Positions 1-42,239 of a stretch of DNA of 42,239 bases are shown here, piece by piece. The position numbers and the translations under genes were made by a program. The DNA is taken from positions 1 to 42,239 of IMG/VR virus record IMGVR_UViG_3300017698_000025; one strand, given 5' to 3'. Source of the DNA: a virus. The notes beneath the pieces are model-generated. The model searched no databases and had not been told where the DNA came from. It saw only the letters and a list, made by a program, of their open reading frames with translations. How positions within the stretch are numbered: the first letter of the stretch is position 1; every line of letters begins with the position of its first letter.

Positions 1-99
1 CGAGTCCGCGAACTCGGCCGCTGGAGCGTGGATCGTGCTGAACCCGGCGACGGTGCGGGGGACGTGGACGCCGATTACTGTCGGGACTACCACGACGTA
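1..99. repeat. 99-bp terminal direct repeat, copy 1 (identical to 42141..42239); circular-closure overlap
   Basis: The first 99 nt (cgagtccgcgaactcggccgctgg...gggactaccacgacgta) recur exactly as the last 99 nt of the window. Confidence 0.97.
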
Positions 100-5993: not shown

Positions 5994-6027
5994 GTCCCCA
6001 ATATACGGACGACGGAAAATCAGTCAA
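5994..6027 (-). promoter_or_regulatory. Leftward sigma70-like promoter with a 17-bp palindromic operator over the -10 (recombination operon)
   Basis: The minus strand reads TTGACT(6027-6022)-N16-TATATT(6005-6000). Operator GTCCGTATATTGGGGAC lies at 6010-5994. The start codon of the first gene is at 5973. Confidence 0.7.
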
Positions 6028-6031
6028 CCCC

Positions 6032-6066
6032 TTGACGCGGATAATTCACGTCCATAATATGGGGAC
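6032..6066 (+). promoter_or_regulatory. Rightward sigma70-like promoter with a 17-bp palindromic operator over the -10 (regulation/replication operon)
   Basis: TTGACG(6032-6037)-N17-TAATAT(6055-6060). Operator GTCCATAATATGGGGAC at 6050-6066. The two -35 boxes are back to back, 4 bp apart (AGTCAAccccTTGACG). Confidence 0.7.
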
Positions 6067-6094: not shown

Positions 6095-6316
6095 ATGAGA
6101 TCACCGGCAGACATCGTCATCGAGACATGGGGCACCGTGCGCGCTACGGCACGTCGCCTCGGGTACTCGAAATCATACGTTCACAGCTGGCAAACACGCC
6201 GGCAGGGGGAGCGCGTCGGGTGCATCCCGCAAGAGGCAATCGACCGGGCGCTGACTGCCGCGCGCGAGGACGGAATCAAGCTGACGCTGGAGCAGCTGCA
6301 TTATGGAGAGGTATGA
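6095..6316 (+). CDS. Cro/YdaS-like helix-turn-helix regulator
   Basis: 73 aa. First ATG downstream of the predicted transcript start, with AGAGAGAGG upstream. HTH segment TVRATARRLGYSKSYVHSWQ. Confidence 0.7.
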   Translation: MRSPADIVIETWGTVRATARRLGYSKSYVHSWQTRRQGERVGCIPQEAIDRALTAAREDGIKLTLEQLHYGEV

Positions 6317-6531
6317 TGGGGTTGTTTGATGGGATTACGGGGCCTTTCTGGGGGCATGAGAACCTTCAGAACCGGTATGAACTGGATCGTCAGGCTCAAC
6401 TGTATGCCCAGCCTCAGATATGGCAAAGCTACACGCCACCCGCACGGAGCCGCCTGCACAACCTTCGCTCCTACCGGGCGCGCATCATCCTCCACTCCAA
6501 CCCATCAACCCGAGTCAGGCGCCAGACATGA
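6313..6531 (+). CDS. Hypothetical protein
   Basis: 72 aa. ATGA overlaps at both ends (with the Cro-like stop and with the next start) suggest translational coupling. No recognisable motif. Confidence 0.45.
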   Translation: MMGLFDGITGPFWGHENLQNRYELDRQAQLYAQPQIWQSYTPPARSRLHNLRSYRARIILHSNPSTRVRRQT

Positions 6532-6845
6532 TCGCTTCATGCCCATGCTGCGGGCAGGCCGTTTCAGAGGCCATCCCGCTTGAACAGCTAGCAACGAGCG
6601 TATCTGGGCGCGTGCGGCTGGCGATCATGGACACCCTGATCAAGAACATCGGGAAGTGGACGACTTCAAGCCGCTTGGTTCAGGCTGTCTACCAAGACGC
6701 AAACGAAGAACCCGAGTACGCGGATAATACCATGCGCGTGACCATCCACCATATGCGCCCCATCATAAGGCAGTATGGCTGGGAGATCGTCGCTGTGAGA
6801 GGCGACGGGAAGGGCTACCAACTGCGTCCGGTCAGGGACGCGTGA
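6528..6845 (+). CDS. Standalone OmpR/PhoB-type winged-helix DNA-binding protein with an N-terminal CPCC motif
   Basis: Starts MIASCPCCGQ. The C-terminal part NTMRVTIHHMRPIIRQYGWEIVAVRGDGKGYQLRP matches the Trans_reg_C pattern (RV.ih.lR.k......I.tvrg.GY.L). Confidence 0.7.
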   Translation: MIASCPCCGQAVSEAIPLEQLATSVSGRVRLAIMDTLIKNIGKWTTSSRLVQAVYQDANEEPEYADNTMRVTIHHMRPIIRQYGWEIVAVRGDGKGYQLRPVRDA

Positions 6846-7156
6846 TGGCCCACTTTACCGCGATGGAATGGGAAATCGTAGCCTTCATGTCTGCAAGATA
6901 TGACCGGTGGTGTCGCGGTGATAAGATTGCGGCCCATCTATACCCAGAGGACCCACCGGAGACCGCAAGGACGGTGATCCGTGTCATGGTCCATCGAATA
7001 CGCCAGAAGATCGGCGTACTCGGGTATGAAATCCTGTCAGAGCGTGGATCCAACTCGCGCGGCTACAAACTGCGTCCGATCAGGAGGGATGATGAAACTT
7101 CGACCGTATCAGGCGCGCGACGTGGAGAGGATACGACAGGAGTTCAGGCACACTAG
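6845..7156 (+). CDS. Standalone OmpR/PhoB-type winged-helix DNA-binding protein (paralogue of 6528..6845)
   Basis: TARTVIRVMVHRIRQKIGVLGYEILSERGSNSRGYKLRP follows the same Trans_reg_C pattern. GTGATG overlap with the upstream stop. Confidence 0.7.
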   Translation: MAHFTAMEWEIVAFMSARYDRWCRGDKIAAHLYPEDPPETARTVIRVMVHRIRQKIGVLGYEILSERGSNSRGYKLRPIRRDDETSTVSGARRGEDTTGVQAH

Positions 7157-8609
7157 GCGCGTTCTCTACACCCTTCCGACCGGTGGCGGGAAGACCGTCA
7201 CGTTCAGCGACATCTGCCGCTGCGTCGTGGCCAAGGGAAACCGCGTCTACATCACCGCGCACCGTCGCCAGATCGTCAACCAGATCTCCGACGCGCTCGC
7301 TATGTTCGGCGTCCAGCACGGGCTGCTGCTTCCGGGCCACAGGATCACGTCTGACCGCGTTCAGGTCGGCATGGTCCAGACCATCGCCAGGAGGCTGCAC
7401 CTGCTGCCCGAGCCGAACATGCTGATCGTCGATGAGGCGCACCACGCTCCGGCCGGGTCGTGGAAGAAACTCTCGGACGAATGGGAGAAGGCACGCCACC
7501 TCGGCGTGACGGCCACCCCTGAACGGCTCGACGGCAAACCCCTCGGGGACTGCTACGACTCCCTGCTGATCGGGCCGTCAACACGCGACCTGATCGACGA
7601 TGGATACCTCTGCAACTTCGATTACTACTCACCTCCGGTGCAGGCCGACCTTGACGGGCTCGGAACGCGCATGGGCGACTTCAAATCTGAGGAACTGGAG
7701 GCCGCGATGGACCGGCCGACCGTCACCGGAGATGCCGTCGCGCACTATGCGAAGCTGGTCAATGGCGCGCCAGCCATCGCGTTCTGTGTGACGATCAAAC
7801 ACGCACAGCACGTGGCGGCATCGTTTCAGGCGGCCGGGTTTCGCTCGACGCACATTGACGGCGGCATGGACGAAAACACGCGGGCGCGGATCTTCTCCGA
7901 TCTGGCGGCTGGGCGCATCCAGGTTCTCACGTGCGCCGAACTGATCTCAGAGGGCGTCGACATCCCGGCTGTGGCGGCGGCGATCCTGCTGCGTCGCACG
8001 AAGTCCCTCACGATGTACCTCCAGCAGGTTGGGCGTGCTCTCAGGCCGGTCTACGCGGACGGGTTCGACCGTGACATGCAGTGCGGCCGCCTGTCTTCCA
8101 TCGCGGCGTCTGACAAGCCCCGTGCGTTCATCCTTGACCACGTCGGAAATTCGAAGATCCACGACGGGCCGGCTTTCCCCAGAAACTGGACACTAGACGG
8201 TAAGCGCGACGACGGGTCGCTTGAGACAGTCACCTGCAAGCGCTGCTTTCGGACATGGGAGCGCGGTGAACAGCGCGAATGCGGCGACGACAGCTGTCCG
8301 TTGCGTGGCCGGGCTGCCTCCACTGCTGATGGCCGACCGGCGCCTGAGATCGTAGACGGGTGGTTGGAACTTCAGTCACGCGATCCGCTCGCATGGGCCG
8401 GAGGGATTGACATCATCCGGGCAACGGGCGCCGAATGGCACGCTTTATTGCAGCGGGCGGGAGGGAACGCGGAATGCCTCAAACAGATCGAGAAGCTACG
8501 CGGGTACAAGCGCGGGTGGCACCTGCACGTCTTGCGGGACAGGCAGAAAAAAGAAAAGGAAAGGGCCACTCAGGATGAACTTCGGCGGATCGGATTTCCG
8601 ACCTTTTGA
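7089..8609 (+). CDS. Superfamily-2 DEAD/DEAH-box helicase with a C-terminal Cys-rich (zinc-ribbon-like) region
   Basis: AGGAGGG RBS. Motif I LPTGGGKT, motif II IVDEAHH, motif III GVTATP, motif VI QQVGRALR. VTCKRCFRTWERGEQRECGDDSCPL lies near the C-terminus. The start could be 7089 or 7092. Confidence 0.88.
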   Translation: MMKLRPYQARDVERIRQEFRHTRRVLYTLPTGGGKTVTFSDICRCVVAKGNRVYITAHRRQIVNQISDALAMFGVQHGLLLPGHRITSDRVQVGMVQTIARRLHLLPEPNMLIVDEAHHAPAGSWKKLSDEWEKARHLGVTATPERLDGKPLGDCYDSLLIGPSTRDLIDDGYLCNFDYYSPPVQADLDGLGTRMGDFKSEELEAAMDRPTVTGDAVAHYAKLVNGAPAIAFCVTIKHAQHVAASFQAAGFRSTHIDGGMDENTRARIFSDLAAGRIQVLTCAELISEGVDIPAVAAAILLRRTKSLTMYLQQVGRALRPVYADGFDRDMQCGRLSSIAASDKPRAFILDHVGNSKIHDGPAFPRNWTLDGKRDDGSLETVTCKRCFRTWERGEQRECGDDSCPLRGRAASTADGRPAPEIVDGWLELQSRDPLAWAGGIDIIRATGAEWHALLQRAGGNAECLKQIEKLRGYKRGWHLHVLRDRQKKEKERATQDELRRIGFPTF

Positions 8610-9240
8610 GTCGGACGAGGACGTTCTGGCCTATCACTCGCGCAAGGCGTCACGCGCTGCCATGCGAGCCCGCAAGTGGGGCGCCCAGGCTGGACGATGC
8701 GCATACTGCCGCGCTCCGATGAAGTGGGCTGCGTCACGGCGGCACGGGAATGCTCGACTGACGAAACTCTGCATGACGGAGGACCACGTCCACCCGACCG
8801 GGCGCGGCGGTCAGAACGTCGAGAGCAACATCGTCCTGTCGTGTCACTGGTGCAACGCGCGCAAGGGGATGATGACGGGTGCCGAATGGGTCGCCGTACT
8901 CTGGGAGGAAAAGGACATGGGCGCACGCGAAACGCCGCTGATGAAGGAAATTCTCGTGGCGCTGTGGAGGGAGTTTCCAGACGGCCTCTGGTATCGGCGG
9001 AACGTCGGATCAGCCAGGGCAGGCGACCGGTTCGTCCGGTTTGGCATGGCCGGGCAGGCGGATATCCCGGGGATCCTCGATGGTCGCGCGATAGAGGTTG
9101 AGGTAAAGCCGGACACCGGCCGGCAGAGCCAAGATCAGAAGCACTGGCAGGCCGCCGTCGAGCGGGCCGGTGGCGTGTATCTCCTGGTGCGCAGCGTCGA
9201 TGACGCGATTGACGGCGTTCGGAAGGCGGTGGGGAGGTGA
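8575..9240 (+). CDS. HNH endonuclease fused to a VRR-NUC (PD-(D/E)XK) nuclease domain
   Basis: N-terminal half CAYCRAP...TEDHVHPTGRGGQNVESNIVLSCHWCNARKG is an HNH motif. C-terminal half WYRRNVGSA..FVRFGMAGQADIPGIL.GRAIEVEVKPDTGRQSQDQKHWQAAVERAGGVYLLVRS follows the VRR-NUC pattern. No stop codon between the two halves. Confidence 0.8.
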   Translation: MNFGGSDFRPFESDEDVLAYHSRKASRAAMRARKWGAQAGRCAYCRAPMKWAASRRHGNARLTKLCMTEDHVHPTGRGGQNVESNIVLSCHWCNARKGMMTGAEWVAVLWEEKDMGARETPLMKEILVALWREFPDGLWYRRNVGSARAGDRFVRFGMAGQADIPGILDGRAIEVEVKPDTGRQSQDQKHWQAAVERAGGVYLLVRSVDDAIDGVRKAVGR

Positions 9241-11867
9241 CTGATCTCGTCTCAATGTTCCTGGACGCCATGCAATCGTCAGGCGTTCTAGGCTGCTCAG
9301 ACCCCATCGCAGACGGCAAGATCCACCGGTTTACCGTAGCTGGAGACAGGCCGAAATCCGATAATGGGTGGTACGTCCTGTTTCTGGACGGCGACTTCGC
9401 GGGCGGTGCCTTCGGGTCGTGGAAACTCAGCGTTTCCGAAACGTGGCACGCTCGCGAGGGCGGCAAGAAGATCACCACGGCGCAGCGCAAACGGGTGCGC
9501 GATCTGGCAGAGATGTCGGAGGCCGAGCGCCAGCGCATCGCTGCTGAGGTGGCCGTCAAGGCCGCTGCGATCTGGAAGGCAGCCTCCCCGTCCACGGCAG
9601 AACACGCCTACGCCGCGCGCAAGCGGATCACGCCGCTCGGGACCCGCATCGACAGGCACGGAAATCTGGTGGTGCCGGTCAGGAATTCGGATGGAGAACT
9701 TCGGTCGCTCCAACTGATCAAGCCGGACGGGAACAAGCTGTTTCTCACAGGCGGCGAGATCGGAGGCAACTGGTCGTCGGTCGGCCGCGCTGGCGACACG
9801 ATGCTGATCTGCGAGGGATACGCTACGGCGTGCACACTACATGAGGCGTGCGGGCTGGGCGTGTTCATCGCGTTCAACAACGGAAACCTGCCGGTCGTGG
9901 CCGAGCGCGTGCGCAGGAAGTACCCGGACGCCGCCCTGATCGTATGCGGCGACAACGACCACAAGACCGAAGGAAACCCCGGCGCCGGCTCGATGCGTGA
10001 GGCGGCCGCGATCTGCAAGGGGCACACGCTGCTGCCGGAGGGCATCAAGGGCACCGACTTCAACGACATGGCCGCCGAGATCGGCATAGACGCGGTCAAT
10101 GCCGCGATCAGAACGAAGCTGGACGCCATCCGCGAAGAACCGCCAGCACCCCAGCCGGGGACTGTTCAGGCGCCAGAAGATCTGGAGGACGACGACGCAA
10201 CGCGCGTGGGTGCTCCACAGCCGCTCGGATACGACAAGGGCGTGTACTACTACTATTCCATGGAGACGCGGCAGGTGGAACAGCTGACACCGGCTGAGCA
10301 CACGCCGCGCTCGCTCATGCACCTCGCCAGCGAGGCTTACTTCTGGTCGCGCACATCGTTCCAATCGAAGAACGGCGTCAACTACAATGACGCGGCCGAC
10401 TGGATGATGCACCGCTGTCGCCAGAAGGGCATCTTCAACATCGACCGCATCCGGGGTCGTGGTGCGTGGCTGGAGGGCAAGAAGGCCATCGTCCATTTTG
10501 GCGACCGTCTCGTTGTGGACGGCAAGACCTGCAACCTGTCGGATTTCAGCGGAGGGCCGTTCCTCTATCAGGCCGCCACGCCTCTCGTCTACGAAACACC
10601 GGAGCCGCTTTCCAAGCGCGAGGCGCATCGGCTTCAGGAGATCTGCGAACTCATCAACTGGCGCGATCCGCTCCACGCCAAGCTGCTGGCCGGCTGGATC
10701 GCCCTCGCCCCTATCTGCGGCGCACTGAACTGGAGGGCGTCGATCTGGATTACCGGGGCGTCCGGCTCCGGCAAGACGTGGATCATGACGCACATCATCA
10801 AGGGCGCCCTCCGCGACGTGTCGCTGATGGTCTCCAGCGGGACCACGGAAGCCGCTCTTCGCCAGAAGCTGGACAGCGACGCGCTCCCGGTGGTCTTCGA
10901 CGAGGCCGAAGGCGAGAAGATGGTGGACGCCCAGCGCATGGACGCCGTACTCCAGCTGGTCCGTCAGTCGTCGTCCGAGCAGGACGCGGCGATCCTGAAG
11001 GGGTCACAGAACCAGAAGGGCGCGAAGATGTACCGGATGCGCTCGTGCTTCGCGTTCATGTCGATCAACGTCGGTCTCGTGGAGCGAGCGGACGAAAGCC
11101 GCATAACGGTGCTCCCACTCGAAAGCGCGGACCGATCCGACCCAGAACAATCCGCCATCGCGGACGACAATTTCGAGGAACTGGAGCGGCTGGTGCGTGA
11201 GACGATTACGCCTGATTTCTCGTCTCGTCTGATTATGCGCTCGGCCCGGCTTATCCCGGTGATCCGCAAGAACCACGACACGTTTTCCCGTGCTGTCGGG
11301 TCCGTGTTCGGGGACCGGCGTGCCGGCGATCAGCTGGGCGCCCTTCTGGCCGGGGCGTACTCGCTCACCTCAGAGGCAGAGATCACCTACGACGCGGCGC
11401 GCGCGTGGATCGAGACGCACTCGAACCTGAAGGCGTCCACTGTGGCCGATGAGCAGACGGACGAGGAACGGTTCCTGTCTCACGTGAAACAGGCCATGGT
11501 GCGCGTCCAGGGTGTCAATGGGCACGGCGTGCTAGACCGACAGATTGGCGAGTTGATGGACGCCGCTCGAACCGTCGAGGGTGGGTACGGGATGGTCTAC
11601 ACCGAGGCGCGACAGACGCTCATGCGCTGCGGTATCCGGTATCAGTCGGAGGACGACGGCGGCGAGGGGTTTTGGATTTCGCACTCGTCAAAGGGACTGA
11701 AGAACCGTATCCTGAAGGACGCGCCGGCCTGGGGCCGAAAGCCCGCGCTGACGCTGAGCCGGATACGTGGCGCCGTGAACAGCGACAACCCGATCCGGTT
11801 CGCTGGCGACAAGGAGCGCGCGACGTTCCTGCCGTGGTCCGTGGTCAAGGGAGACGATGATGCCTGA
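9237..11867 (+). CDS. Primase-helicase: COG4643-like N-terminal domain, Toprim primase and P-loop helicase (P4-alpha/DUF927-like)
   Basis: 876 aa. GKIHRF..DNGWYVLFLDG..GAFGSW; Toprim motifs LICEGYATA and CGDNDH; Walker A ITGASGSGKT; Walker B VVFDEAE. The GTG start overlaps the upstream TGA. An alternative ATG is at 9255. Confidence 0.88.
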   Translation: MTDLVSMFLDAMQSSGVLGCSDPIADGKIHRFTVAGDRPKSDNGWYVLFLDGDFAGGAFGSWKLSVSETWHAREGGKKITTAQRKRVRDLAEMSEAERQRIAAEVAVKAAAIWKAASPSTAEHAYAARKRITPLGTRIDRHGNLVVPVRNSDGELRSLQLIKPDGNKLFLTGGEIGGNWSSVGRAGDTMLICEGYATACTLHEACGLGVFIAFNNGNLPVVAERVRRKYPDAALIVCGDNDHKTEGNPGAGSMREAAAICKGHTLLPEGIKGTDFNDMAAEIGIDAVNAAIRTKLDAIREEPPAPQPGTVQAPEDLEDDDATRVGAPQPLGYDKGVYYYYSMETRQVEQLTPAEHTPRSLMHLASEAYFWSRTSFQSKNGVNYNDAADWMMHRCRQKGIFNIDRIRGRGAWLEGKKAIVHFGDRLVVDGKTCNLSDFSGGPFLYQAATPLVYETPEPLSKREAHRLQEICELINWRDPLHAKLLAGWIALAPICGALNWRASIWITGASGSGKTWIMTHIIKGALRDVSLMVSSGTTEAALRQKLDSDALPVVFDEAEGEKMVDAQRMDAVLQLVRQSSSEQDAAILKGSQNQKGAKMYRMRSCFAFMSINVGLVERADESRITVLPLESADRSDPEQSAIADDNFEELERLVRETITPDFSSRLIMRSARLIPVIRKNHDTFSRAVGSVFGDRRAGDQLGALLAGAYSLTSEAEITYDAARAWIETHSNLKASTVADEQTDEERFLSHVKQAMVRVQGVNGHGVLDRQIGELMDAARTVEGGYGMVYTEARQTLMRCGIRYQSEDDGGEGFWISHSSKGLKNRILKDAPAWGRKPALTLSRIRGAVNSDNPIRFAGDKERATFLPWSVVKGDDDA

Positions 11868-12960: not shown

Positions 12961-13283
12961 CACTCTCCCTCCATCTTGTGGGGGTTGGGGAGGGCGCGGA
13001 TGTCATCCTCGATGAGGTCGGCAGCCGTGTCAGACGCAACACTATCAGGGCGGTGCGACCACCCTTTAGATCGGATTCCCGCCTCCTCCGCACTCGCCGT
13101 CCTTCCCTGCTCCCATGCGGAGGCTTCGCGGGCTTGGACCTGGGCGAGGGTGAAGAGGTGGCGCTCTTCGAACGGCCACTTCGGGTTTCCTTCCCACTGC
13201 CCGTCCATCCATCCGGACCAACCCTCGTCTTGAGGGCGCCGAAATCGGAACTGTCGCAGGACAGGCTCCATCTCCTCAGCCAT
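12960..13283 (-). CDS. Hypothetical Trp-rich protein
   Basis: 107 aa. AAGGAGA RBS. 8-nt overlap with the HNH-AP2 gene. Confidence 0.6.
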   Translation of the reverse strand: MAEEMEPVLRQFRFRRPQDEGWSGWMDGQWEGNPKWPFEERHLFTLAQVQAREASAWEQGRTASAEEAGIRSKGWSHRPDSVASDTAADLIEDDIRALPNPHKMEGE

Positions 13284-13848
13284 GGTCTGTCTCCTTGAGG
13301 GTGGAGCGGATGTCGTCTGAGAAGTTTAGCGTTGCGAAGACTCCGTGAAGCCGAGCGGCGGCATCGTCATAGGCAAATGCGGCGTCTATCTCTAGACGGT
13401 GAAGCCCGAGCCCAATCTTGCTTCTCTTCCCATTCGAAATCTGCGCCCTCCACTTAGCTTCGCGTGCGTCCCAAGACACTCCGCGATAAATAGAGGACTT
13501 CCCAACCTTCATTCTGCAATTGCGCGAGTTCTCCGCGTGCGTGCAGGACCTGAGATTTTCAGGCCTATTATCTGCCCTGTCACGGTTTATATGGTCGATA
13601 ACATCTGGGTCGTAACCATGAACCATCTTCCAAATAACACGATGAGCGAAATAAAATGTGCGGTCTATCTTCCCGCATCTGTAACCATCACCATTGATCC
13701 TGGTGAACGCCGTCTTTCCAGCAAACTTCCCATTCCACCACGGAAGATGTGGTTGGGCCCTCCAAACCAAACGTCCGCAGGGGTGAAGCTCTAGCCGCTG
13801 AAGGAGATATTTTTGTTCTGGAAGTTGGGCATACTTCTGGCCGCTCAT
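13276..13848 (-). CDS. HNH-AP2 homing endonuclease
   Basis: 190 aa from MSGQKY. AHRVIWKMVHGYDPDVIDHINRDRADNRPENLRSCTHAENSRN is an HNH_3-type motif. YRGVSWDAREAKWRAQISNGKRSKIGLGLHRLEIDAAFAYDDAAARLHGVFATLNF follows the AP2 DNA-binding pattern. Visibly AT-richer than the flanks. Confidence 0.85.
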   Translation of the reverse strand: MSGQKYAQLPEQKYLLQRLELHPCGRLVWRAQPHLPWWNGKFAGKTAFTRINGDGYRCGKIDRTFYFAHRVIWKMVHGYDPDVIDHINRDRADNRPENLRSCTHAENSRNCRMKVGKSSIYRGVSWDAREAKWRAQISNGKRSKIGLGLHRLEIDAAFAYDDAAARLHGVFATLNFSDDIRSTLKETDHG

Positions 13849-17657: not shown

Positions 17658-17694
17658 CTCAGGTCCCCTTCTTTCGGCCTGCTTCCGTCTCTAT

Positions 17695-17730
17695 GTCCCC
17701 AATATACGGACGTGCACGCACCCCTGTCAA
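17695..17730 (-). promoter_or_regulatory. Leftward sigma70-like promoter with a 17-bp palindromic operator over the -10 (small-ORF operon)
   Basis: The minus strand reads TTGACA(17730-17725)-N18-TATATT(17706-17701). Operator GTCCGTATATTGGGGAC (17711-17695) is identical to the one at 5994-6010. Confidence 0.7.
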
Positions 17731-17811
17731 CGCCTTTTTAAATCGCCGCGCATTTTTTTCGAGCGCTCCAGGCTGCGTGCACACACGGCTTCCACCCCGA
17801 ACCGGTGGCGG

Positions 17812-17853
17812 AGTTCATTTTTCAGACATCAGAATTCATTTTTAAAACATCAC
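17812..17853. repeat. Tandem AT-rich 21-mer direct repeat (2 copies)
   Basis: agttcatttttcagacatcag followed by aattcatttttaaaacatcac; 17 of 21 positions identical. Confidence 0.8.
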
Positions 17854-18047
17854 GTCTCGGCAACCCCAGATTTTATTCCGCAGCGATGTCACAACCGTGC
17901 TGCACCCTCCATGATTTTAATCATGCCCAATTACAACCATTCCGGGCTAAATATGTGTGTTCAAAATGTGGCGAAACGCTCGGAAACGGCATCAAACCAC
18001 CGTAATATGCGCACACAGTGCCGTTTATCAAACCACGAGGCCAGATT

Positions 18048-18427
18048 TGTCCCAAAAATATGTAGTGAAACAAATGGCTTAGCCGAATGTTTCACGTTTC
18101 GTCCCGGCTGGGACAGAAAATTCCGCGCGGTTGTCCCGGAATAGATTAGCGAATTCAACGGGTTATGTGCTTGGGACGAAAACACAGTGGTAAAACCTCC
18201 AGATATATACCCACTGTGTGTGCATACACACGACGTGCATACGCGCGCGTACACCCACACGGGGCGTTTTTGCGTGGTTATTTCGTCCCACAGTAGTAGT
18301 ATCAGAAAAAAGATATATGAATGAATGACTTAGGGGTGGGACAAAAATGGGCCACCGCTGGGACAAGGTCGATCCCGCCACATTTCAGCGGAAATCCTTC
18401 AATGAAATCAGACGGGTCAATGGGACA
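18048..18427. repeat. Iteron-like array: 9 copies of (T/C)GGGAC(A/G), usually followed by an A-run; candidate origin or regulator-binding array
   Basis: Plus orientation at 18109, 18172, 18337, 18359 and 18421. Minus orientation at 18048, 18100, 18132 and 18284. Non-coding, AT-richer context. Confidence 0.75.
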
Positions 18428-18532
18428 GGTTGGTTTTTTCGCAGGATTGTGGCGCCCGGCAGAAATTTTCTGTTGCGGTAGGGTCCTAGGTGTGTGATCT
18501 TGACTGCGCAACCAACCAACGGAGTGAGTGGA

Positions 18533-18745
18533 ATGTTTGAAATTGAAGACAAGCCTGTGGATGAGAACGCGCAGCGTGGGAAATACCCGTTTTGTGATAT
18601 GGCTGCCGGGCAGTCGTTCACGATCCCCGCTGAGATTGCCGCGAAAGTCTCCAACGCGGCAGTCAGCTACGGCAAAACCCACGGCATGAAATTTTCCACC
18701 CGCAGACAGGTCGACGGGACCTACCGCTGCGGCCGCGTCGCCTGA
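18533..18745 (+). CDS. Hypothetical protein
   Basis: 70 aa starting MFEIEDKP. GGAGTGAG RBS. First gene to the right of the non-coding region. Confidence 0.65.
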   Translation: MFEIEDKPVDENAQRGKYPFCDMAAGQSFTIPAEIAAKVSNAAVSYGKTHGMKFSTRRQVDGTYRCGRVA

Positions 18746-19475: not shown

Positions 19476-19735
19476 CCGACCTGACCCGCAACCTGGAAAT
19501 CGCGGACACGTTCGCCGAACGCTTCGGCAGGCAATCCTGCCGCGTCGAGAAAATCGATGGCTCATCCATGCCTGACGCCGTCATGGTCGCATATCACGAC
19601 GCCATCACAGGACTCGGCATGACCATCTGGGTGTTCGGAAAGCAGCAGTTCAAGGGGTTCGTCGAGCAGACCGGCCACGACTTGTGCTACGGAAACGTGG
19701 CCGAGCGGTTTGCGCAGTTCTGTGAGGTGGATTGA
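19472..19735 (+). CDS. Hypothetical protein
   Basis: 87 aa. ATGA overlap upstream and TGATG overlap downstream. Confidence 0.6.
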   Translation: MTDLTRNLEIADTFAERFGRQSCRVEKIDGSSMPDAVMVAYHDAITGLGMTIWVFGKQQFKGFVEQTGHDLCYGNVAERFAQFCEVD

Positions 19736-20127
19736 TGGCAGGCCGTCCATCCACATACACCGAGAAGCTGTCGGACGAGATCTGCGGACGCATCACGAAC
19801 GGCGAAAGCCTCAGCGCTATCTGTCGTGAGCCGGCGATGCCGGCGCCGTCTTCGGTGTTCAAGTGGTTGCGAGAGCATCCTTCATTCTCGGAGAGATACG
19901 CGATTGCTCGCCAAGAGCAGGCCGACACCTTGGCCGATCAGATCACTGCAATCGCAGACGATCTCACAGGAGACCCGGCACGCGACAGGCTTCGCATCGA
20001 CGCCCGCAAATGGATCGCCTCGAAGCTTAAGCCGAAAGCTTACGGCGACAAGGTCGATATGACACACAGCGGCGGAGATACTCCGATCCAGCACGAGATC
20101 GAAGTTCGTATCGTGAAGGCGACGTGA
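19735..20127 (+). CDS. terS: Terminase small subunit (HTH-type)
   Basis: MAGRPSTYTEKLSDEICGRITNGESLSAICREPAMPAPSSVFKWLREHPSFSERYAIARQEQADTLADQI...RIDARKWIASKLKPKAYGDK matches the widespread GRPskYt...ic..i..G.sl..ic......P....v..Wl......f...Ya.Are small-terminase pattern. Confidence 0.8.
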   Translation: MAGRPSTYTEKLSDEICGRITNGESLSAICREPAMPAPSSVFKWLREHPSFSERYAIARQEQADTLADQITAIADDLTGDPARDRLRIDARKWIASKLKPKAYGDKVDMTHSGGDTPIQHEIEVRIVKAT

Positions 20128-20300: not shown

Positions 20301-20335
20301 TTGACACCCATGCGATGTGTCCATATATTAAGGAC
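20301..20335 (+). promoter_or_regulatory. Rightward consensus sigma70 promoter with a 17-bp palindromic operator over the -10 (packaging, structural and lysis operon)
   Basis: TTGACA(20301-20306)-N17-TATATT(20324-20329). Operator GTCCATATATTAAGGAC at 20319-20335. Confidence 0.75.
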
Positions 20336-20354
20336 ATCAGCAAGGGAGATCGAC

Positions 20355-20510
20355 ATGAACATTGGTTCGAACGTCAAGGTCACGGGTCGTCAGAACACTT
20401 TCGAGGTGGTGCGCCTGTACGAGATTGCCGGGATCCCCTCGGCTAAGATCGTCGATTGGAAGAATAAGCTATGCTTGTGCCATCGGGTGGAGGACCTTCG
20501 CGTCATCTAA
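20355..20510 (+). CDS. Hypothetical small protein
   Basis: 51 aa starting MNIGSNVKV. GGGAGA RBS. First ORF after the promoter. Overlaps the annotated terL start by 40 nt. Confidence 0.5.
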   Translation: MNIGSNVKVTGRQNTFEVVRLYEIAGIPSAKIVDWKNKLCLCHRVEDLRVI

Positions 20511-21853
20511 AAACCATCTCCCTCGCCGTTCCTGAAAAGCTGGAGCCGCTGCTCTACCCGAAGCGCTACAAGGGCGCCTACGGTGGACGCGGCGGCGCCA
20601 AGTCGCACTTCTTCGCCGAGCAGATCGTCATCCGGTGCTTCCAGCGCAAAACGCGCGTGGTGTGCATCCGTGAGGTTCAGAACAGCCTCAAGGAATCGTC
20701 GCGCCAGCTGATCATCGACAAGATCTTCAAGCTCGGGCTTGAGGATCAGTTCGAGATCCTGGAAGCCGAGATCAGGTGCCGAGCCAACGGCTCTCTGATC
20801 ATCTTCAAGGGGATGCAGTCCTACAACGCGGCGAATATCAAGTCGCTTGAGGGCTTCGATATCGCGTGGGTGGAAGAGGCCCAGACGATGTCGCGCACGT
20901 CGCTCATGATGCTGCGCCCAACCATCCGCAAACCCGGCAGTGAGCTGTGGTTCTCGTGGAACCCGCGTTACAAGACCGACCCTGTCGATGAGTTCTTCCG
21001 CAAGTCTCCCTCGCCAGAAGCCATATCCATCGCCATCAACTGGCGCGACAACCCGTGGTTCCCGGACGAACTGCGCCAGGACATGGAGCACGACTTCACG
21101 ACCGACCCAGACACCGCCGAGCACGTATGGGAGGGCGCCTATGGTGCGTCCGAGGGCGCCATCCTCGCGAAGTGGATCAACCGGGCCGAGCGTGATGGCC
21201 GCATCAGCGACGACATCGAGTTCGACCCGTTCGGCGCCCCCGTCGAGATCAGCGCTGACATCGGGTTCCGGGATACCGCGTCGTGGTGGTTCTGGCAGCC
21301 TCGCATCAACGGGTTCGCAGTGCTGCGCAACCGTCGCGATCGCGGCATGGACGCCGAGGATTGGGTCAAGGAGATCGAGGCCGAGTTGAGGCGCATGGGC
21401 GTGCGGCCGGAAAAGCTGGGGCGGATCTGGTTGCCGCAGGACGCCAAGGCGAAGACGTTCGGGACGAAGCACACGAGTGTGGAGCGGTTCATAGCGAAGT
21501 TTGGGCACGCTAAGGTGCGCATCGTGCCACCGTCCCGTAAGGCGGACCAGATCAGCGCGGCGCGCGCGATGGTGCCCCTCTGCCGGTTCGCCAAGACGGC
21601 ATGTGACGAGGGGCTGGACGGCCTGCGCGCATGGGAGTTCGAATACGACGATGAGAACGACGTGTTCAGCCGTGAGCCGAAGCACAATTGGGCCTCGCAC
21701 GACGGCGACGGGTTCGCCTACGGGTGTCAGGTGCTGAGACAACGTGAATTGACGATTGCCGAAGAGCCTGACAGAATGCTGGCTGTTGGTCCGCTGAACA
21801 CGGTGACGTTGAACGACCTGTGGGATGCGCAGAAAGTGAGGAAGCGGAGATGA
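20471..21853 (+). CDS. terL: Terminase large subunit (PBSX / Terminase_3-like)
   Basis: 460 aa. Walker-A-like RYKGAYGGRGGAKS, Walker B/coupling GFDIAWVEEAQ, and nuclease-half motifs (WLPQDA, ASHDGDGFAY). The exact start is uncertain. Confidence 0.9.
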   Translation: MLVPSGGGPSRHLKTISLAVPEKLEPLLYPKRYKGAYGGRGGAKSHFFAEQIVIRCFQRKTRVVCIREVQNSLKESSRQLIIDKIFKLGLEDQFEILEAEIRCRANGSLIIFKGMQSYNAANIKSLEGFDIAWVEEAQTMSRTSLMMLRPTIRKPGSELWFSWNPRYKTDPVDEFFRKSPSPEAISIAINWRDNPWFPDELRQDMEHDFTTDPDTAEHVWEGAYGASEGAILAKWINRAERDGRISDDIEFDPFGAPVEISADIGFRDTASWWFWQPRINGFAVLRNRRDRGMDAEDWVKEIEAELRRMGVRPEKLGRIWLPQDAKAKTFGTKHTSVERFIAKFGHAKVRIVPPSRKADQISAARAMVPLCRFAKTACDEGLDGLRAWEFEYDDENDVFSREPKHNWASHDGDGFAYGCQVLRQRELTIAEEPDRMLAVGPLNTVTLNDLWDAQKVRKRR

Positions 21854-35439: not shown

Positions 35440-36790
35440 TCCGAAGGAAACCGCCGCCGCACAAGGCGCGATGAATCGCGACACCGCGATCACTCAGTAT
35501 ATGCTGGGTGCCACGAACCAGAAAACTCCGTTCGGCTCCCTCGAATACACCATGGACGGCTCGTGGGGTTCCCCCTCGCAGCCTGCGCAGTCCGCCAGTC
35601 AGTACGCGCCGAACACGGCTGGCGCAGTCCCGTCTCAGCCGCCTACGCAGAACTGGTCCGCTGGCAGCCGATCCGACAACGGCGGCATGGGGTCGGTCAA
35701 CACGACGCCGGGCCAGACGGCTGGATACAACACCGCACCGAACACCGCATCGTCTACGGGCTGGGAGAACACGCCGCGTTTCACCGCGACGCAGACGCTC
35801 TCTCCTGAACTTCAGGCGATCATGGATAACTTCCTCGGGGCCGCGAACACGGCCAGCGGGAACCTTCAGGACTCGCTGTCGAAGCCGCTCGATTTCAGCG
35901 GGCTTCCGGCGTGGACGAATAGCGTTGACGGCGGCGATATCCAGAGGAACCTTGACCTGACCGGCCTCTCGTCGCTCCCCGGTATCGACGATTTCGGAGC
36001 CGAGCGCCAGAAGGTCGAGGACGCGCTGTTTCAGCGGCTCAACCCGCAGATCGCACAGGACCGGGACGCGACGGAATCGCAGCTGTTCGCGCGCGGCATC
36101 CGGCCAGGAACGGAAGCCTACGACCGCGAGATGCAGCGGCTGAATTCTAATATCTCGGATCAGCGCACGGCGGTCACTCTGGCCGGTGGTCAGGAGCAGT
36201 CGCGGCTGTTCAACGATGCGCTGTCGGGTCGCCAGCAGGGATATCAGGAAACGCTTGGGTCCGGCGCATTCGCGAACAGCGCTCAGCAGCAGGCGTTTCA
36301 ACAGGCGCTCGCGAATGCCGGGCTGTCCAACTCGGGACGGCAGCAGGGCATCGAAGAGCAGATGCTCCAGCGGTCGCAGCCGATCAACGAGATCGCCGCG
36401 CTGTTGCAGGGCACCCAGATCGCCGGGCCTCAGTTCACGAACACTCCTCAGCCGGGCGTTAATGGCGTCGATTACACGGGGCTCGTGAACCAGCAGTATC
36501 AGGCCGAGCAAGCTAACTCTCAGGGCATGATGTCGGGTCTGTTTGGCGTCGGGTCGTCTCTGCTCGGTGGGCTGTTCGGCCTCTCTGACCGACGCCTGAA
36601 GTCGGACATTCGCCGCGTCGGAACGCTCGACAACGGGCTGCCGGTCTACGTGTACGTGATCGGTGGTCAGACGCAGATGGGCGTCATGGCCGACGAGGTC
36701 GAGCAGGTGCTGCCGGAAGCGGTGGCCGAACTGCCCAGCGGCGTGAAGGCGGTGAACTACAGGATGGTGGCGGAACATGGCGCTTCTTGA
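35417..36790 (+). CDS. Virion protein with a C-terminal Peptidase_S74 intramolecular-chaperone (auto-cleaving) domain
   Basis: 457 aa. Gln/Asn/Ser/Thr/Gly-rich body. C-terminus SDRRLKSDIRRVGTLDNGLPVYVYVIGGQTQMGVMADEVEQVLPEAV...VNYRMV matches the S74 signature (SD.RLK..I...Y.Y.....GviAqEVe.v.PeaV...vdY). Confidence 0.75.
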   Translation: MSTPSPPDPKETAAAQGAMNRDTAITQYMLGATNQKTPFGSLEYTMDGSWGSPSQPAQSASQYAPNTAGAVPSQPPTQNWSAGSRSDNGGMGSVNTTPGQTAGYNTAPNTASSTGWENTPRFTATQTLSPELQAIMDNFLGAANTASGNLQDSLSKPLDFSGLPAWTNSVDGGDIQRNLDLTGLSSLPGIDDFGAERQKVEDALFQRLNPQIAQDRDATESQLFARGIRPGTEAYDREMQRLNSNISDQRTAVTLAGGQEQSRLFNDALSGRQQGYQETLGSGAFANSAQQQAFQQALANAGLSNSGRQQGIEEQMLQRSQPINEIAALLQGTQIAGPQFTNTPQPGVNGVDYTGLVNQQYQAEQANSQGMMSGLFGVGSSLLGGLFGLSDRRLKSDIRRVGTLDNGLPVYVYVIGGQTQMGVMADEVEQVLPEAVAELPSGVKAVNYRMVAEHGAS

Positions 36791-41655: not shown

Positions 41656-42239
41656 ATGCCACGTAACGGATCGGGCGTTTTCACGGTCATCAACAGCTTC
41701 ACGCCGAGCACGGTGATCGCGTCGTCCCAGATGAACGCGAACTTCACGGACGTGGCCACGGCGCTCACGCAGTCCGTAGCGACGACTGGCGTGTCGGCCA
41801 TGGCAGCGAACCTTCCGATGGGGAACAACCGCATCACGGGGCTCGCGCAGGGCACCGCAGGCGCCGACGCGGTCAATAAGAACCAGCTTGACGTTCTGAT
41901 GGGTGGCCTGACCACGGCTGGCTCCGCAGGCACGTATACGTTGACCAGCGGAACATCGATTACGACGCTGGCGGATGGGCTCATGGTGGTCGTGCGCATC
42001 AACGCGACGAACGCCGGGGCGTCCACACTGAACGTCGACGGGCTCGGCGCGAAGGCCATCCGGTATCAGTACAGCGCTGGTGACAACGCCGTTTATGCTG
42101 GCGCCCTGTCTGAGGACGCGCTGTTCACGATGGTCTACAGCGAGTCCGCGAACTCGGCCGCTGGAGCGTGGATCGTGCTGAACCCGGCGACGGTGCGGGG
42201 GACGTGGACGCCGATTACTGTCGGGACTACCACGACGTA
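41656..42239 (+). CDS. Tail fibre protein, N-terminal part (continues at 100..424 after the circular junction)
   Basis: GAGG RBS then ATG at 41656. MPRNGSGVFTVINSFTPSTVIASSQMNANFTDVATALTQS...NRITGLAQGTAGADAVNKNQLD is the typical conserved N-terminus of phage tail fibres. The ORF runs off the window end in frame. Confidence 0.8.
   Translation, partial: MPRNGSGVFTVINSFTPSTVIASSQMNANFTDVATALTQSVATTGVSAMAANLPMGNNRITGLAQGTAGADAVNKNQLDVLMGGLTTAGSAGTYTLTSGTSITTLADGLMVVVRINATNAGASTLNVDGLGAKAIRYQYSAGDNAVYAGALSEDALFTMVYSESANSAAGAWIVLNPATVRGTWTPITVGTTTT
42141..42239. repeat. 99-bp terminal direct repeat, copy 2 (identical to 1..99)
   Basis: Exact match to bases 1-99. Confidence 0.97.

What the first reader, a model, noticed from the sequence alone, without database searches (positions are those of the whole stretch)
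18048..18427. Nine TGGGAC(A/G) iteron-like repeats in the only large non-coding region (candidate origin or regulator-binding array)
Plus orientation: 18109 (cTGGGACAgaaaa), 18172 (tTGGGACGaaaac), 18337 (gTGGGACAaaaat), 18359 (cTGGGACAagg), 18421 (aTGGGACAgg). Minus orientation: 18048, 18100, 18132, 18284.

About one GGGAC per 380 bp (both strands) is expected by chance, and nine are present. Several spacings are near whole helical turns: 22 bp between 18337 and 18359, and 62-63 bp for 18109->18172 and 18359->18421. Positions 18101-18114 form GTCCC-GGCT-GGGAC, a short-spacer version of the promoter operators, whose right halves read (G)GGGAC.

The array lies between the divergent early-left and middle-right operons. 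The operon starting at 18533 has no good sigma70 promoter. Possible roles:
- Origin iterons for the P4-alpha-like primase-helicase. P4 alpha binds repeated octamers in ori/crr.
- An activator-binding array for the OmpR-type winged-helix proteins.
- A titration or looping site for the operator-binding repressor.
Basis: partly seen in the sequence, partly recalled or inferred. Interest (0 to 1): 0.75.

Follow-up and report, generated by a model that had tools for sequence, protein, structure and literature searches.

The report
Probable phage replication origin (iteron array)
Nine short GGGAC repeats surround the most easily melted DNA in this phage genome, and six phages sharing its primase-helicase have similar arrays, so it is most likely the phage's replication origin, a known kind of element in an unstudied phage group.

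Summary
Nine GGGAC(A/G) repeats (seven of them TGGGAC) lie in 18049-18426, against about 0.7 expected per 390 bp. No shuffle of the gap reaches 7 copies of any 6-mer (0 of 1000).

The repeats flank the least stable DNA of the whole 42-kb genome (18291-18335). The nearest left repeat is on the - strand and the three right repeats are on the + strand.

Six other phages encode the same uncharacterised primase-helicase family. All six have a non-coding stretch with phage-specific short repeats, in both orientations, around an AT-rich core. In five of the six these repeats are the genome's most significant 6-mer cluster. In three of them the repeats start directly after the primase-helicase gene. 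Several arrays end in a shared GACTTAG-type motif followed by direct repeats. KLER1-1 shares a 14-nt identity with the window.

The only window proteins shared by the four fully compared relatives are the primase-helicase and an SNF2-type helicase. The terminases are unrelated, or lie 7 kb away.

This is the layout of SaPI and P4-type origins. Best reading: lytic replication origin (about 0.65). The binding protein is unproven. No homology to P4 alpha or SaPI Rep was found, and C-terminal similarity does not track repeat identity. Helical phasing is not robust.

The parts
18045..18055 (-). Iteron 1 (TTGGGACAAAT on the - strand)
18097..18107 (-). Iteron 2 (CCGGGACGAAA). Left half of the palindrome GTCCC-GGCT-GGGAC.
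18108..18118 (+). Iteron 3 (CTGGGACAGAA). Right half of the same palindrome.
18129..18139 (-). Iteron 4 (CCGGGACAACC), a weaker match to the matrix
18171..18181 (+). Iteron 5 (TTGGGACGAAA). Outer end of the 25-nt inverted repeat 18172-18196 / 18266-18290.
18212..18254 (.). Alternating purine/pyrimidine tract containing the genome's two longest such runs and the perfect palindrome TACGCGCGCGTA. It lies between iterons 5 and 6. Role unknown; possibly a region prone to structural transitions.
18281..18291 (-). Iteron 6 (GTGGGACGAAA). It borders the AT-rich block on the left and points away from it.
18291..18335 (.). AT-rich block, the proposed DNA-unwinding element. The least stable 40-, 50- and 60-bp windows of the whole genome fall here (z = 4.5 for 50 bp). 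It begins with AGTAGTAGTA.
18325..18338 (+). Conserved edge motif ATGACTTAGGGGTG. It is identical over 14 nt in phage KLER1-1. A GACTTAG core sits at the same position in PY223 and Kakheti25, and CATTTAG in MQ-4.
18336..18346 (+). Iteron 7 (GTGGGACAAAA), the best match to the matrix and the first of three direct right-hand repeats
18358..18368 (+). Iteron 8 (CTGGGACAAGG)
18420..18430 (+). Iteron 9 (ATGGGACAGGT)
9237..11867 (+). Primase-helicase (876 aa; Toprim_3 domain, P-loop NTPase, C-terminal extension; phrog_35358). Candidate initiator. One of only two window proteins shared with all four fully compared phages that carry the same origin grammar.
6981..8609 (+). SNF2/ResIII-type helicase, the second protein shared with those phages
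18533..18745 (+). 70-aa protein with a weak DUF7303 match, the first gene to the right of the array. Homologs sit beside the equivalent arrays in PY223, Mwe-JY13 and Kakheti25-like phages. None was found in MQ-4, S-H1 or phi1422, nor in the part of KLER1-1 examined. Function unknown; a possible accessory or regulatory factor.

Best explanation
The array is the phage's origin of lytic DNA replication.

Proposed mechanism:
1. Nine short asymmetric repeats (Y-GGGAC-R-AAA) are binding sites for a phage-encoded initiator.
2. The repeats lie on both sides of a 45-bp AT-rich block, mainly in opposite orientations: six to the left, with the nearest on the - strand, and three to the right, all on the + strand.
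3. Bound initiator melts the AT-rich block and loads helicase on each side.
4. The most likely initiator is the primase-helicase encoded at 9237-11867, acting as a self-loading helicase-initiator in the way SaPI Rep/PriRep and P4 alpha do.
5. The conserved motif ATGACTTAGGGGTG at the right edge of the AT block would be a common signal, for loading or priming, shared across the phage group. The repeats would give each phage its own specificity.

Shown here: the repeats, their enrichment and orientations; the stability minimum; and the recurrence of the same grammar, together with this primase-helicase family, in six other phages.

Inferred: that the region fires as an origin, that the primase-helicase is the binding protein, and the role of the edge motif.
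For: 1. The enrichment is real.
2. The least stable 40-, 50- and 60-bp windows of the genome lie between repeats 18285(-) and 18338(+). No competing repeat cluster exists elsewhere in non-coding DNA.
3. The same grammar appears in all six other phages examined that encode this primase-helicase family.
   - PY223: GTTACG, 7 copies, with the genome's least stable DNA inside the array (z = 6.2).
   - Mwe-JY13: syntenic gap containing that genome's least stable DNA (z = 6.4).
   - MQ-4: GTAAC, about 16 copies (z = 5.3).
   - S-H1: CCGTTMGG repeats abutting the gene's stop codon.
   - phi1422: 12 copies of GGTAACA starting about 10 bp after the stop codon, left set (-) and right set (+).
   - KLER1-1: two repeat families directly after the gene.
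   - Three control genomes lack such arrays.
4. A conserved edge motif (GACTTAG core) followed by three direct repeats is seen in the window and PY223, with CATTTAG in MQ-4. The window and KLER1-1 share 14 identical nucleotides.
5. The only window proteins shared with PY223, Mwe-JY13, MQ-4 and S-H1 are the primase-helicase and the SNF2 helicase.
6. The terminases of the window and of PY223/MQ-4 are unrelated. TerS lies 7.2 kb from the array in phi1422 and about 7.3 kb away in Kakheti25.
7. The layout matches the published description of SaPI origins: 6-12 penta- or hexanucleotide iterons, a central AT-rich region, opposite orientation on the two sides, and a primase-helicase initiator (PMC9371898).
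Against: - There is no experimental or read-depth evidence.
- In the window the array is 6.2 kb from the primase-helicase gene and directly upstream of the operon leading to the terminase genes, which has no recognisable promoter. A transcriptional role is therefore not excluded.
- The primase-helicase has no detectable sequence similarity to P4 alpha, SaPI Rep or any solved initiator.
- The model of its C-terminal region was unusable (pLDDT 40).
- C-terminal identity does not track repeat identity. MQ-4 and phi1422 use the same repeat at 23% identity, the lowest of any pair.
- Kakheti25-like phages have the same cis grammar with a primase that is not detectably related.
- GC skew is uninformative. 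The minimum is broad at 18-21 kb in the window and lies elsewhere in PY223.
- No DnaA box was found in the gap.
- In Mwe-JY13 the repeats are weak (5 copies) and are not the top cluster in that genome.
Confidence: 0.65

Rival explanations
1. The array is a transcription-control region. A phage activator or repressor binds the repeats and switches on the promoter-less rightward operon (18533 through TerS), or coordinates the divergent promoters. This could coexist with an origin function.
For: - No sigma70-type promoter was found upstream of 18533.
- Three direct repeats lie 110-200 bp upstream of the start codon.
- In MQ-4 and Kakheti25, repeats abut or overlap promoter-like hexamers.
- The site format, a 7-bp core plus an A-rich tail, fits binding by winged-helix monomers (own knowledge), and an OmpR-type protein is encoded at 6420-6845.
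Against: - No regulator is shared among the phages that share the grammar.
- In S-H1 and phi1422 the arrays follow the primase-helicase gene, and in phi1422 they are 7 kb from the late genes.
- A 45-90 bp block that is the least stable DNA of each genome, flanked by oppositely oriented repeats, is not needed for activator sites.
Confidence: 0.15
2. The array is a packaging recognition site (pac). The small terminase binds the repeats to start headful packaging, as the P1 pac hexamers or the lambda cosB R sites do.
For: - The array lies 1.3 kb upstream of an Sf6-type TerS and a PBSX-family TerL, which points to probable headful packaging.
- The P1 pac site also uses repeated hexamers (own knowledge).
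Against: - Arrays with the same grammar and the shared edge motif occur in phages with unrelated terminases.
- Arrays lie about 7 kb from TerS in phi1422 and Kakheti25.
- Kakheti25-type phages are reported as circularly permuted with no fixed ends (PMC5313236, PMC10281088).
- P22 and Sf6-type pac sites lie inside the TerS gene (own knowledge).
Confidence: 0.06
3. The array is a titration or looping site for the repressor that binds the promoter operators. That repressor would be the Cro-like protein encoded at 6095-6316.
For: - Four sigma70 promoters carry a GTCC-N9-GGAC palindrome around the -10.
- The array core contains GGAC, and one short-spacer palindrome lies at 18101-18114.
Against: - The operator is a 21-bp palindrome, ACGTCC-N9-GGACGT. 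Array sites are asymmetric single sites with an invariant GGGAC and an A-rich tail, and only four bases are shared.
- In PY223 all seven intergenic copies of the array repeat are inside the array, and none is at the early promoters.
Confidence: 0.05
4. The array is a partition (centromere-like) site, or a chance cluster with no function.
For: Arrays of short repeats can serve as centromeres in phage-plasmids (own knowledge).
Against: - No ParA, ParB or ParM/R genes were found in the window.
- Chance is excluded by the shuffles and by the recurrence in related phages.
Confidence: 0.03

Closest known systems
SaPI (Staphylococcus aureus pathogenicity island) replication origins with Rep / PriRep self-loading helicase-initiators
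   Same: - Both have 6-12 very short (5-6 nt) iterons with an AT-rich region near the centre.
- Iterons on the two sides point in opposite directions.
- The iteron sequence is specific to each element.
- The initiator is a helicase that can be fused to a primase (PriRep5).
- In the relatives S-H1, phi1422 and KLER1-1 the array lies immediately downstream of the primase-helicase gene, as in SaPIs (PMC9371898).
   Different: - In the window the array is 6.2 kb from the primase-helicase gene.
- The primase-helicase shows no detectable sequence similarity to solved structures, which should include the published Rep proteins.
- A winged-helix C-terminal domain is unproven.
- A conserved edge motif (GACTTAG) shared across distant phages has no described SaPI counterpart.
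- Some lineages add a DUF7303-like small gene beside the array.
Satellite phage P4 ori/crr and the alpha protein
   Same: Both have short (8-bp) repeats in both orientations, bound by the C-terminal domain of a primase-helicase, and the origin is separate from the gene (own knowledge).
   Different: - No second crr-like cluster exists in the window.
- The repeat sequence is different.
- There is no sequence match to the solved alpha origin-binding domain.
Iteron origins of lambda (O protein) and of theta plasmids (pSC101, P1, RK2, pPS10)
   Same: Both place initiator-binding repeats next to an AT-rich unwinding element. In some relatives the layout AT block, direct repeats, adjacent small gene resembles oriV followed by rep.
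   Different: - The repeats here are 7-10 bp, irregularly spaced and in both orientations, not 17-22 bp in a phased tandem.
- There are no DnaA boxes.
- There is no Rep or O homolog.

Membership tests
SaPI-type origin (short iterons flanking an AT-rich centre, Rep/PriRep initiator) | Six to twelve penta- or hexanucleotide iterons | tested here: met
   Nine GGGAC cores in 378 bp. Definition taken from PMC9371898.
SaPI-type origin (short iterons flanking an AT-rich centre, Rep/PriRep initiator) | An AT-rich region inside the array, with iterons on both sides | tested here: met
   The genome's least stable 40-60 bp lie at 18274-18335, with six repeats to the left and three to the right.
SaPI-type origin (short iterons flanking an AT-rich centre, Rep/PriRep initiator) | At least two iterons on each side, pointing in opposite directions | tested here: met
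   Left side: four on the - strand (18049, 18101, 18133, 18285) and two on the + strand. Right side: three on the + strand.
SaPI-type origin (short iterons flanking an AT-rich centre, Rep/PriRep initiator) | The origin lies immediately downstream of the initiator gene | tested here: not met
   In the window the array is 6.2 kb downstream of 9237-11867. The feature is met in the relatives S-H1, phi1422 and KLER1-1.
SaPI-type origin (short iterons flanking an AT-rich centre, Rep/PriRep initiator) | The initiator is homologous to SaPI Rep and has a C-terminal winged-helix domain that binds the iterons | tested here: inconclusive
   The profile search found no PDB sequence match. The AlphaFold model of the C-terminal 192 aa had pLDDT 40. 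Binding cannot be tested with these tools.
P4 alpha / ori-crr system | A primase-helicase with a C-terminal origin-binding domain homologous to P4 alpha | tested here: not met
   The domain order is similar: Toprim_3, then a P-loop NTPase. No sequence match to any solved chain was found beyond marginal Toprim hits.
P4 alpha / ori-crr system | Two separate repeat clusters (ori and crr) | tested here: not met
   There is a single cluster. Eight of the nine best matrix matches lie in 18045-18368, and the remaining hits are scattered in coding DNA.
Lambda or plasmid iteron origin | 17-22 bp iterons in phased direct tandem, with DnaA boxes | tested here: not met
   The motif is 7-10 bp, in mixed orientation and with irregular spacing. 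No DnaA box with up to 1 mismatch lies in the gap.
Terminase recognition site (pac or cosB) | The cis site travels with the small terminase family and lies near or inside its gene | tested here: not met
   The same grammar occurs with unrelated terminases, and about 7 kb from TerS in phi1422 and Kakheti25.
Terminase recognition site (pac or cosB) | Packaging series or DNA ends start at the site | not testable with these tools
   No read-level data are available. The assembly closes into a circle with a 99-bp overlap.
Operators of the promoter-bound (Cro-like) repressor | The 21-bp palindrome ACGTCC-N9-GGACGT centred on a -10 hexamer | tested here: not met
   Copies of the box lie at 5994, 6049 and 17695, with a weaker one at 20318. 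Array sites are single and asymmetric, and the only palindrome has a 4-bp spacer.

The most novel reading that the evidence does not exclude
These phages would use a two-part origin code. Variable short iterons would give each phage its own specificity. A motif conserved across phages, GACTTAG(G) at the edge of the unwinding element (14 nt identical between this phage and KLER1-1), would be a universal loading or priming signal read by the conserved part of an uncharacterised primase-helicase family. The hosts of these phages range from cyanobacteria to Bdellovibrio. In some lineages a small DUF7303-domain protein, always encoded beside the array, would be a new origin-associated factor.
Probability: 0.2. 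Interest if true: 0.65.

Novelty: new member of a known kind. Interest (0 to 1): 0.45.

Why it matters
Replication origins are unmapped for most environmental phages. This array and its counterparts in six other phages give a concrete, testable origin grammar for a widespread but uncharacterised primase-helicase family (phrog_35358): phage-specific short repeats in opposite orientation, an AT-rich block, and a GACTTAG-type edge. The hosts of these phages include Bordetella, Serratia, Bdellovibrio, Microcystis and Synechococcus.

If confirmed, it would allow origin prediction in such genomes and provide minimal replicons for engineering. It would also show that the SaPI/P4 strategy of a self-loading initiator-helicase is used by ordinary lytic phages through a family unrelated in sequence.

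Tried and rejected
- **Close relatives for a constraint test.** I found none.
  - GenBank phages have no DNA match.
  - Relatives in IMG/VR, GTDB and the 5.8-billion-protein set reach at most 68% TerL identity.
  - The only other contig is 100% identical.
  - The 18-bp promoter box is absent from IMG/VR.
  - The metagenome scan for GACTTAGGGGTGGGAC gave 25 chance hits with no related genes.
  - The PY223 relatives are more than 99% identical across the gap.
- **RNA gene.** There are no Rfam or tRNA hits.
- **cos ends.** Several Kakheti25-type records start inside the equivalent gap, but the starts disagree with each other and these phages are reported as circularly permuted.
- **Small DUF7303-like protein as a recognisable DNA binder.** The model was usable (pLDDT 78) but had no significant fold match (best E = 0.15). 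The only informative fusion is to TerB domains. No such gene was found in MQ-4, S-H1, phi1422 or the examined part of KLER1-1.
- **Covariation between the primase-helicase C-terminus and the repeat sequence.** Not supportive.
- **Fold of the C-terminal domain.** The model was unusable.
- **GC skew as independent origin evidence.** It is confounded by gene strand and inconsistent between phages.
- **Helical phasing.** Not robust.
- **DnaA boxes.** None in the gap.
- **Literature.** I found nothing on Mwe-JY13 or on origins in the Kakheti25 group.

Full report
**1. The observation**

The window is a complete, circularly closed phage assembly with a 99-bp terminal overlap. It is 61.6% GC. Positions 17658-18532 form an 875-bp non-coding gap of 50% GC.

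- Seven are TGGGAC and two are CCGGGAC.
- The next base is always a purine, mostly followed by AAA, giving Y-GGGAC-R-A-A-A.

The rest of the window has 0.71 GGGAC per 390 bp. Eight of the nine best genome-wide matches to the 11-bp matrix lie in 18045-18368.

I corrected for picking the best word after the fact, using 1000 dinucleotide-preserving shuffles of the gap. No shuffle reaches 7 copies of any 6-mer, and 9 of 1000 reach 9 copies of any 5-mer.

The claimed helical phasing is not robust. At 10.5 bp R is 0.33, and only a tuned 10.35-bp period stands out, at the 2% level.

**2. Surroundings**

To the left is a leftward operon of small genes. It is driven by a strong sigma70-type promoter, TTGACA-18-TATATT, at 17730-17701.

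To the right, an operon starts at 18533 without a recognisable promoter. It runs through five small genes into an Sf6-type small terminase (19732-20127) and a PBSX-family large terminase (20471-21853).

The replication genes lie elsewhere, in an operon starting at about 6050:
- a Cro-like HTH protein (6095-6316)
- an OmpR-type winged-helix protein (6420-6845)
- an SNF2/ResIII helicase (6981-8609)
- an 876-aa primase-helicase (9237-11867; Toprim_3 plus a P-loop; phrog_35358)

No Rfam family or tRNA was found.

**3. Anatomy of the array**

The least stable 40-, 50- and 60-bp windows of the entire genome fall at 18274-18335. That is between repeat 18285 (- strand) and repeat 18338 (+ strand).

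Six repeats lie to the left of this AT-rich block, four of them on the - strand including the nearest one. Three lie to the right, all on the + strand.

The genome's two longest alternating purine/pyrimidine runs (18215-18254) also lie inside the array. So does a 25-nt inverted repeat whose outer ends are repeats 5 and 6. The gap contains no DnaA box.

**4. Relation to the promoter operators**

Three promoters (5994-6011 on the - strand, 6049-6066 on the + strand, 17695-17712 on the - strand) share an 18-bp box, against 0.04 copies expected by chance.
- The box is a 21-bp palindrome, ACGTCC-N9-GGACGT, around the -10.
- A fourth full promoter with the same kind of palindrome lies at 20301-20338, upstream of the large terminase gene.

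The array sites share only GGAC with these operators. They are asymmetric single sites, and only one short-spacer palindrome exists.

**5. Relatives**

No close relative exists in any collection searched. Distant relatives were found through the primase-helicase.

| Phage | Repeat and copy number | AT-rich core | Position relative to the primase-helicase gene |
|---|---|---|---|
| Microcystis phage Mwe-JY13 | weaker repeats: ATTACC x5, TGGCG x5 by eye | genome's least stable 50 bp (z = 6.4) | about 0.9 kb from the gene; syntenic 728-bp gap before the operon leading to TerS |
| Bordetella phage PY223 | GTTACG x7, top cluster in its genome | genome's least stable DNA (z = 6.2), inside the array | 11.8 kb away, in a divergent gap |
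| Serratia phage MQ-4 | GTAAC, about 16 copies | z = 5.3, inside the array | 1.6 kb downstream |
| Synechococcus phage S-H1 | CCGTT(A/C)GG in both orientations | AT-rich core, not the genome minimum | abuts the stop codon |
| Bdellovibrio phage phi1422 | GGTAACA x12 in 300 bp; left set (-), right set (+) | AT-rich (TTA)n blocks | starts about 10 bp after the stop codon; TerS is 7.2 kb away |
| Pararheinheimera phage KLER1-1 | GCTTACA x7 and TGCTAA x6 | TATATA-rich core | directly after the gene |

PY223 is a myovirus with an unrelated terminase.

Three control genomes without this primase-helicase show no such array.

**6. A conserved edge motif**

- The AT block ends in GACTTAG in the window (18327), PY223 and Kakheti25. 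That is the single + strand copy in each. MQ-4 has CATTTAG at the same place.
- In the window, PY223 and MQ-4 the motif is followed within 2-4 nt by three direct repeats.
- KLER1-1 carries ATGACTTAGGGGTG, identical over 14 nt to window 18325-18338.

The gaps are therefore homologous elements and not merely analogous ones.

**7. What travels with the element**

Across PY223, Mwe-JY13, MQ-4 and S-H1, the only window proteins conserved are the primase-helicase and the SNF2 helicase. The terminases of the window and of PY223/MQ-4 are unrelated.

A 70-aa DUF7303-like protein (18533-18745) is encoded beside the array in the window, PY223, Mwe-JY13 and Kakheti25-like Pseudomonas phages.
- No such gene was found in MQ-4, S-H1 or phi1422, or in the part of KLER1-1 examined.
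- Its model (pLDDT 78) has no significant structural match.
- Its function remains unknown.

Kakheti25-like phages have the same cis grammar: TATAAC repeats, a roughly 90-bp AT block that is the genome's stability minimum (z = 5.3), and GGACTTAGC. Their primase is not detectably related, and the gap is about 7.3 kb from TerS. These phages are reported as circularly permuted with no fixed ends (PMC5313236, PMC10281088). Deposited records that start inside the gap therefore do not indicate cos.

**8. Interpretation**

The layout matches the published description of SaPI origins (PMC9371898):
- six to twelve penta- or hexanucleotide iterons
- a central AT-rich region
- at least two iterons on each side pointing in opposite directions
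- recognition by the C-terminal winged-helix domain of a self-loading helicase-initiator, which in SaPI5 is fused to the primase

By my own knowledge it also resembles the P4 ori and its alpha protein.

I conclude that the array is most likely the origin of lytic replication (confidence about 0.65), with the primase-helicase as the most likely initiator (about 0.4).

The caveats are substantial.
- Nothing has been tested experimentally.
- The primase-helicase has no sequence similarity to P4 alpha, SaPI Rep or any solved initiator.
- The C-terminal model failed.
- C-terminal identity does not track repeat identity. MQ-4 and phi1422 use the same repeat at 23% identity.
- In the window the array is 6.2 kb from the gene and lies directly upstream of an operon with no recognisable promoter. 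A role in transcription, alone or combined with origin function, remains possible (about 0.15).
- A pac site (about 0.06) is disfavoured by the unrelated and distant terminases.
- A repressor sink (about 0.05) is disfavoured because the array sites differ in form from the operators, and because in PY223 all seven intergenic copies of the repeat lie inside the array.

**9. Novelty**

This is a new member of a known kind, an iteron origin served by a primase-helicase initiator, in an unstudied phage lineage. Two things go beyond the ordinary. One is the cross-phage grammar, including the conserved GACTTAG edge. The other is the recurrent DUF7303-like neighbouring gene. I did not find either described in the literature I searched.

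Noticed in passing
window 5994-6011 (-), 6049-6066 (+), 17695-17712 (-), 20318-20335 (+): All four strong sigma70-type promoters (TTGACA-17/18-TATATT) have their -10 embedded in a palindrome, ACGTCC-N9-GGACGT (TGTCC-N9-GGACA at 20318). This is probably a common operator for one repressor, perhaps the Cro-like HTH protein at 6095-6316. The fourth copy sits just upstream of the large terminase gene, inside the supposed late operon.
   Followed up: partly
window 18533-18745; L086 24468-24707; L078 35795-35980; L094 37186-37461: A small protein (70-91 aa) with a weak DUF7303 match is encoded next to the repeat/AT-block element in four phage lineages, on either side of it. The domain family is large (3349 representative clusters). 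It occurs as single, double or triple tandem copies, and once fused to TerB/TerB-C. It has no structural match, and its function is unknown.
   Followed up: partly
window 18325-18338; L097 9089-9102: The 14-nt sequence ATGACTTAGGGGTG is identical between this phage and Pararheinheimera phage KLER1-1, which are otherwise only about 30% identical in protein. In both it lies at the right edge of the AT-rich block. It might be a priming or loading signal.
   Followed up: partly
window 18212-18254: The two longest alternating purine/pyrimidine runs of the genome are adjacent here. They include the perfect palindrome TACGCGCGCGTA and the hairpin-prone GTGTGTGCATACACAC. The motif CACACAGTG(G) also occurs three times, at 18012 (+), 18182 (+) and 18210 (-).
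   Followed up: no
window 17811-17852: A 21-bp tandem direct repeat (GAGTTCATTTTTCAGACATCA / GAATTCATTTTTAAAACATCA) forms the second least stable stretch of the genome (by 40- and 60-bp windows), between the leftward promoter and the array.
   Followed up: no
window 18065-18095: A 31-bp near-perfect palindrome, GTGAAACAAATGGCT-T-AGCCGAATGTTTCAC, lies between repeats 1 and 2. It is a likely binding site for a dimeric protein.
   Followed up: no
window 18004-18031 (-): A second leftward promoter-like site, TTGATA-16-CATATT, lies inside the gap. It would transcribe the non-coding 17.7-18.0 kb stretch towards the main leftward promoter.
   Followed up: no
window 1-99 and 42141-42239: An exact 99-bp terminal direct repeat shows that the contig is a circularly closed complete genome of about 42,140 bp. 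A Logan contig from SRR5917978 is 100% identical over 21.4 kb.
   Followed up: yes
window 13276-13848 (-): An HNH endonuclease fused to an AP2 DNA-binding domain is encoded within the leftward operon. It is probably a homing endonuclease.
   Followed up: no
window 37586-38015: A cluster of CTGCGGC/CTGCTGC words (7 copies each) lies inside the 726-aa gene at 36777-38957. It is probably a repetitive coding segment of a tail or fibre protein.
   Followed up: no
window 18347-18481 (+): The public gene call on the identical Logan contig places a 44-aa ORF here, overlapping repeats 8 and 9. The GC content is low and no homologs were seen, so it is probably spurious.
   Followed up: no
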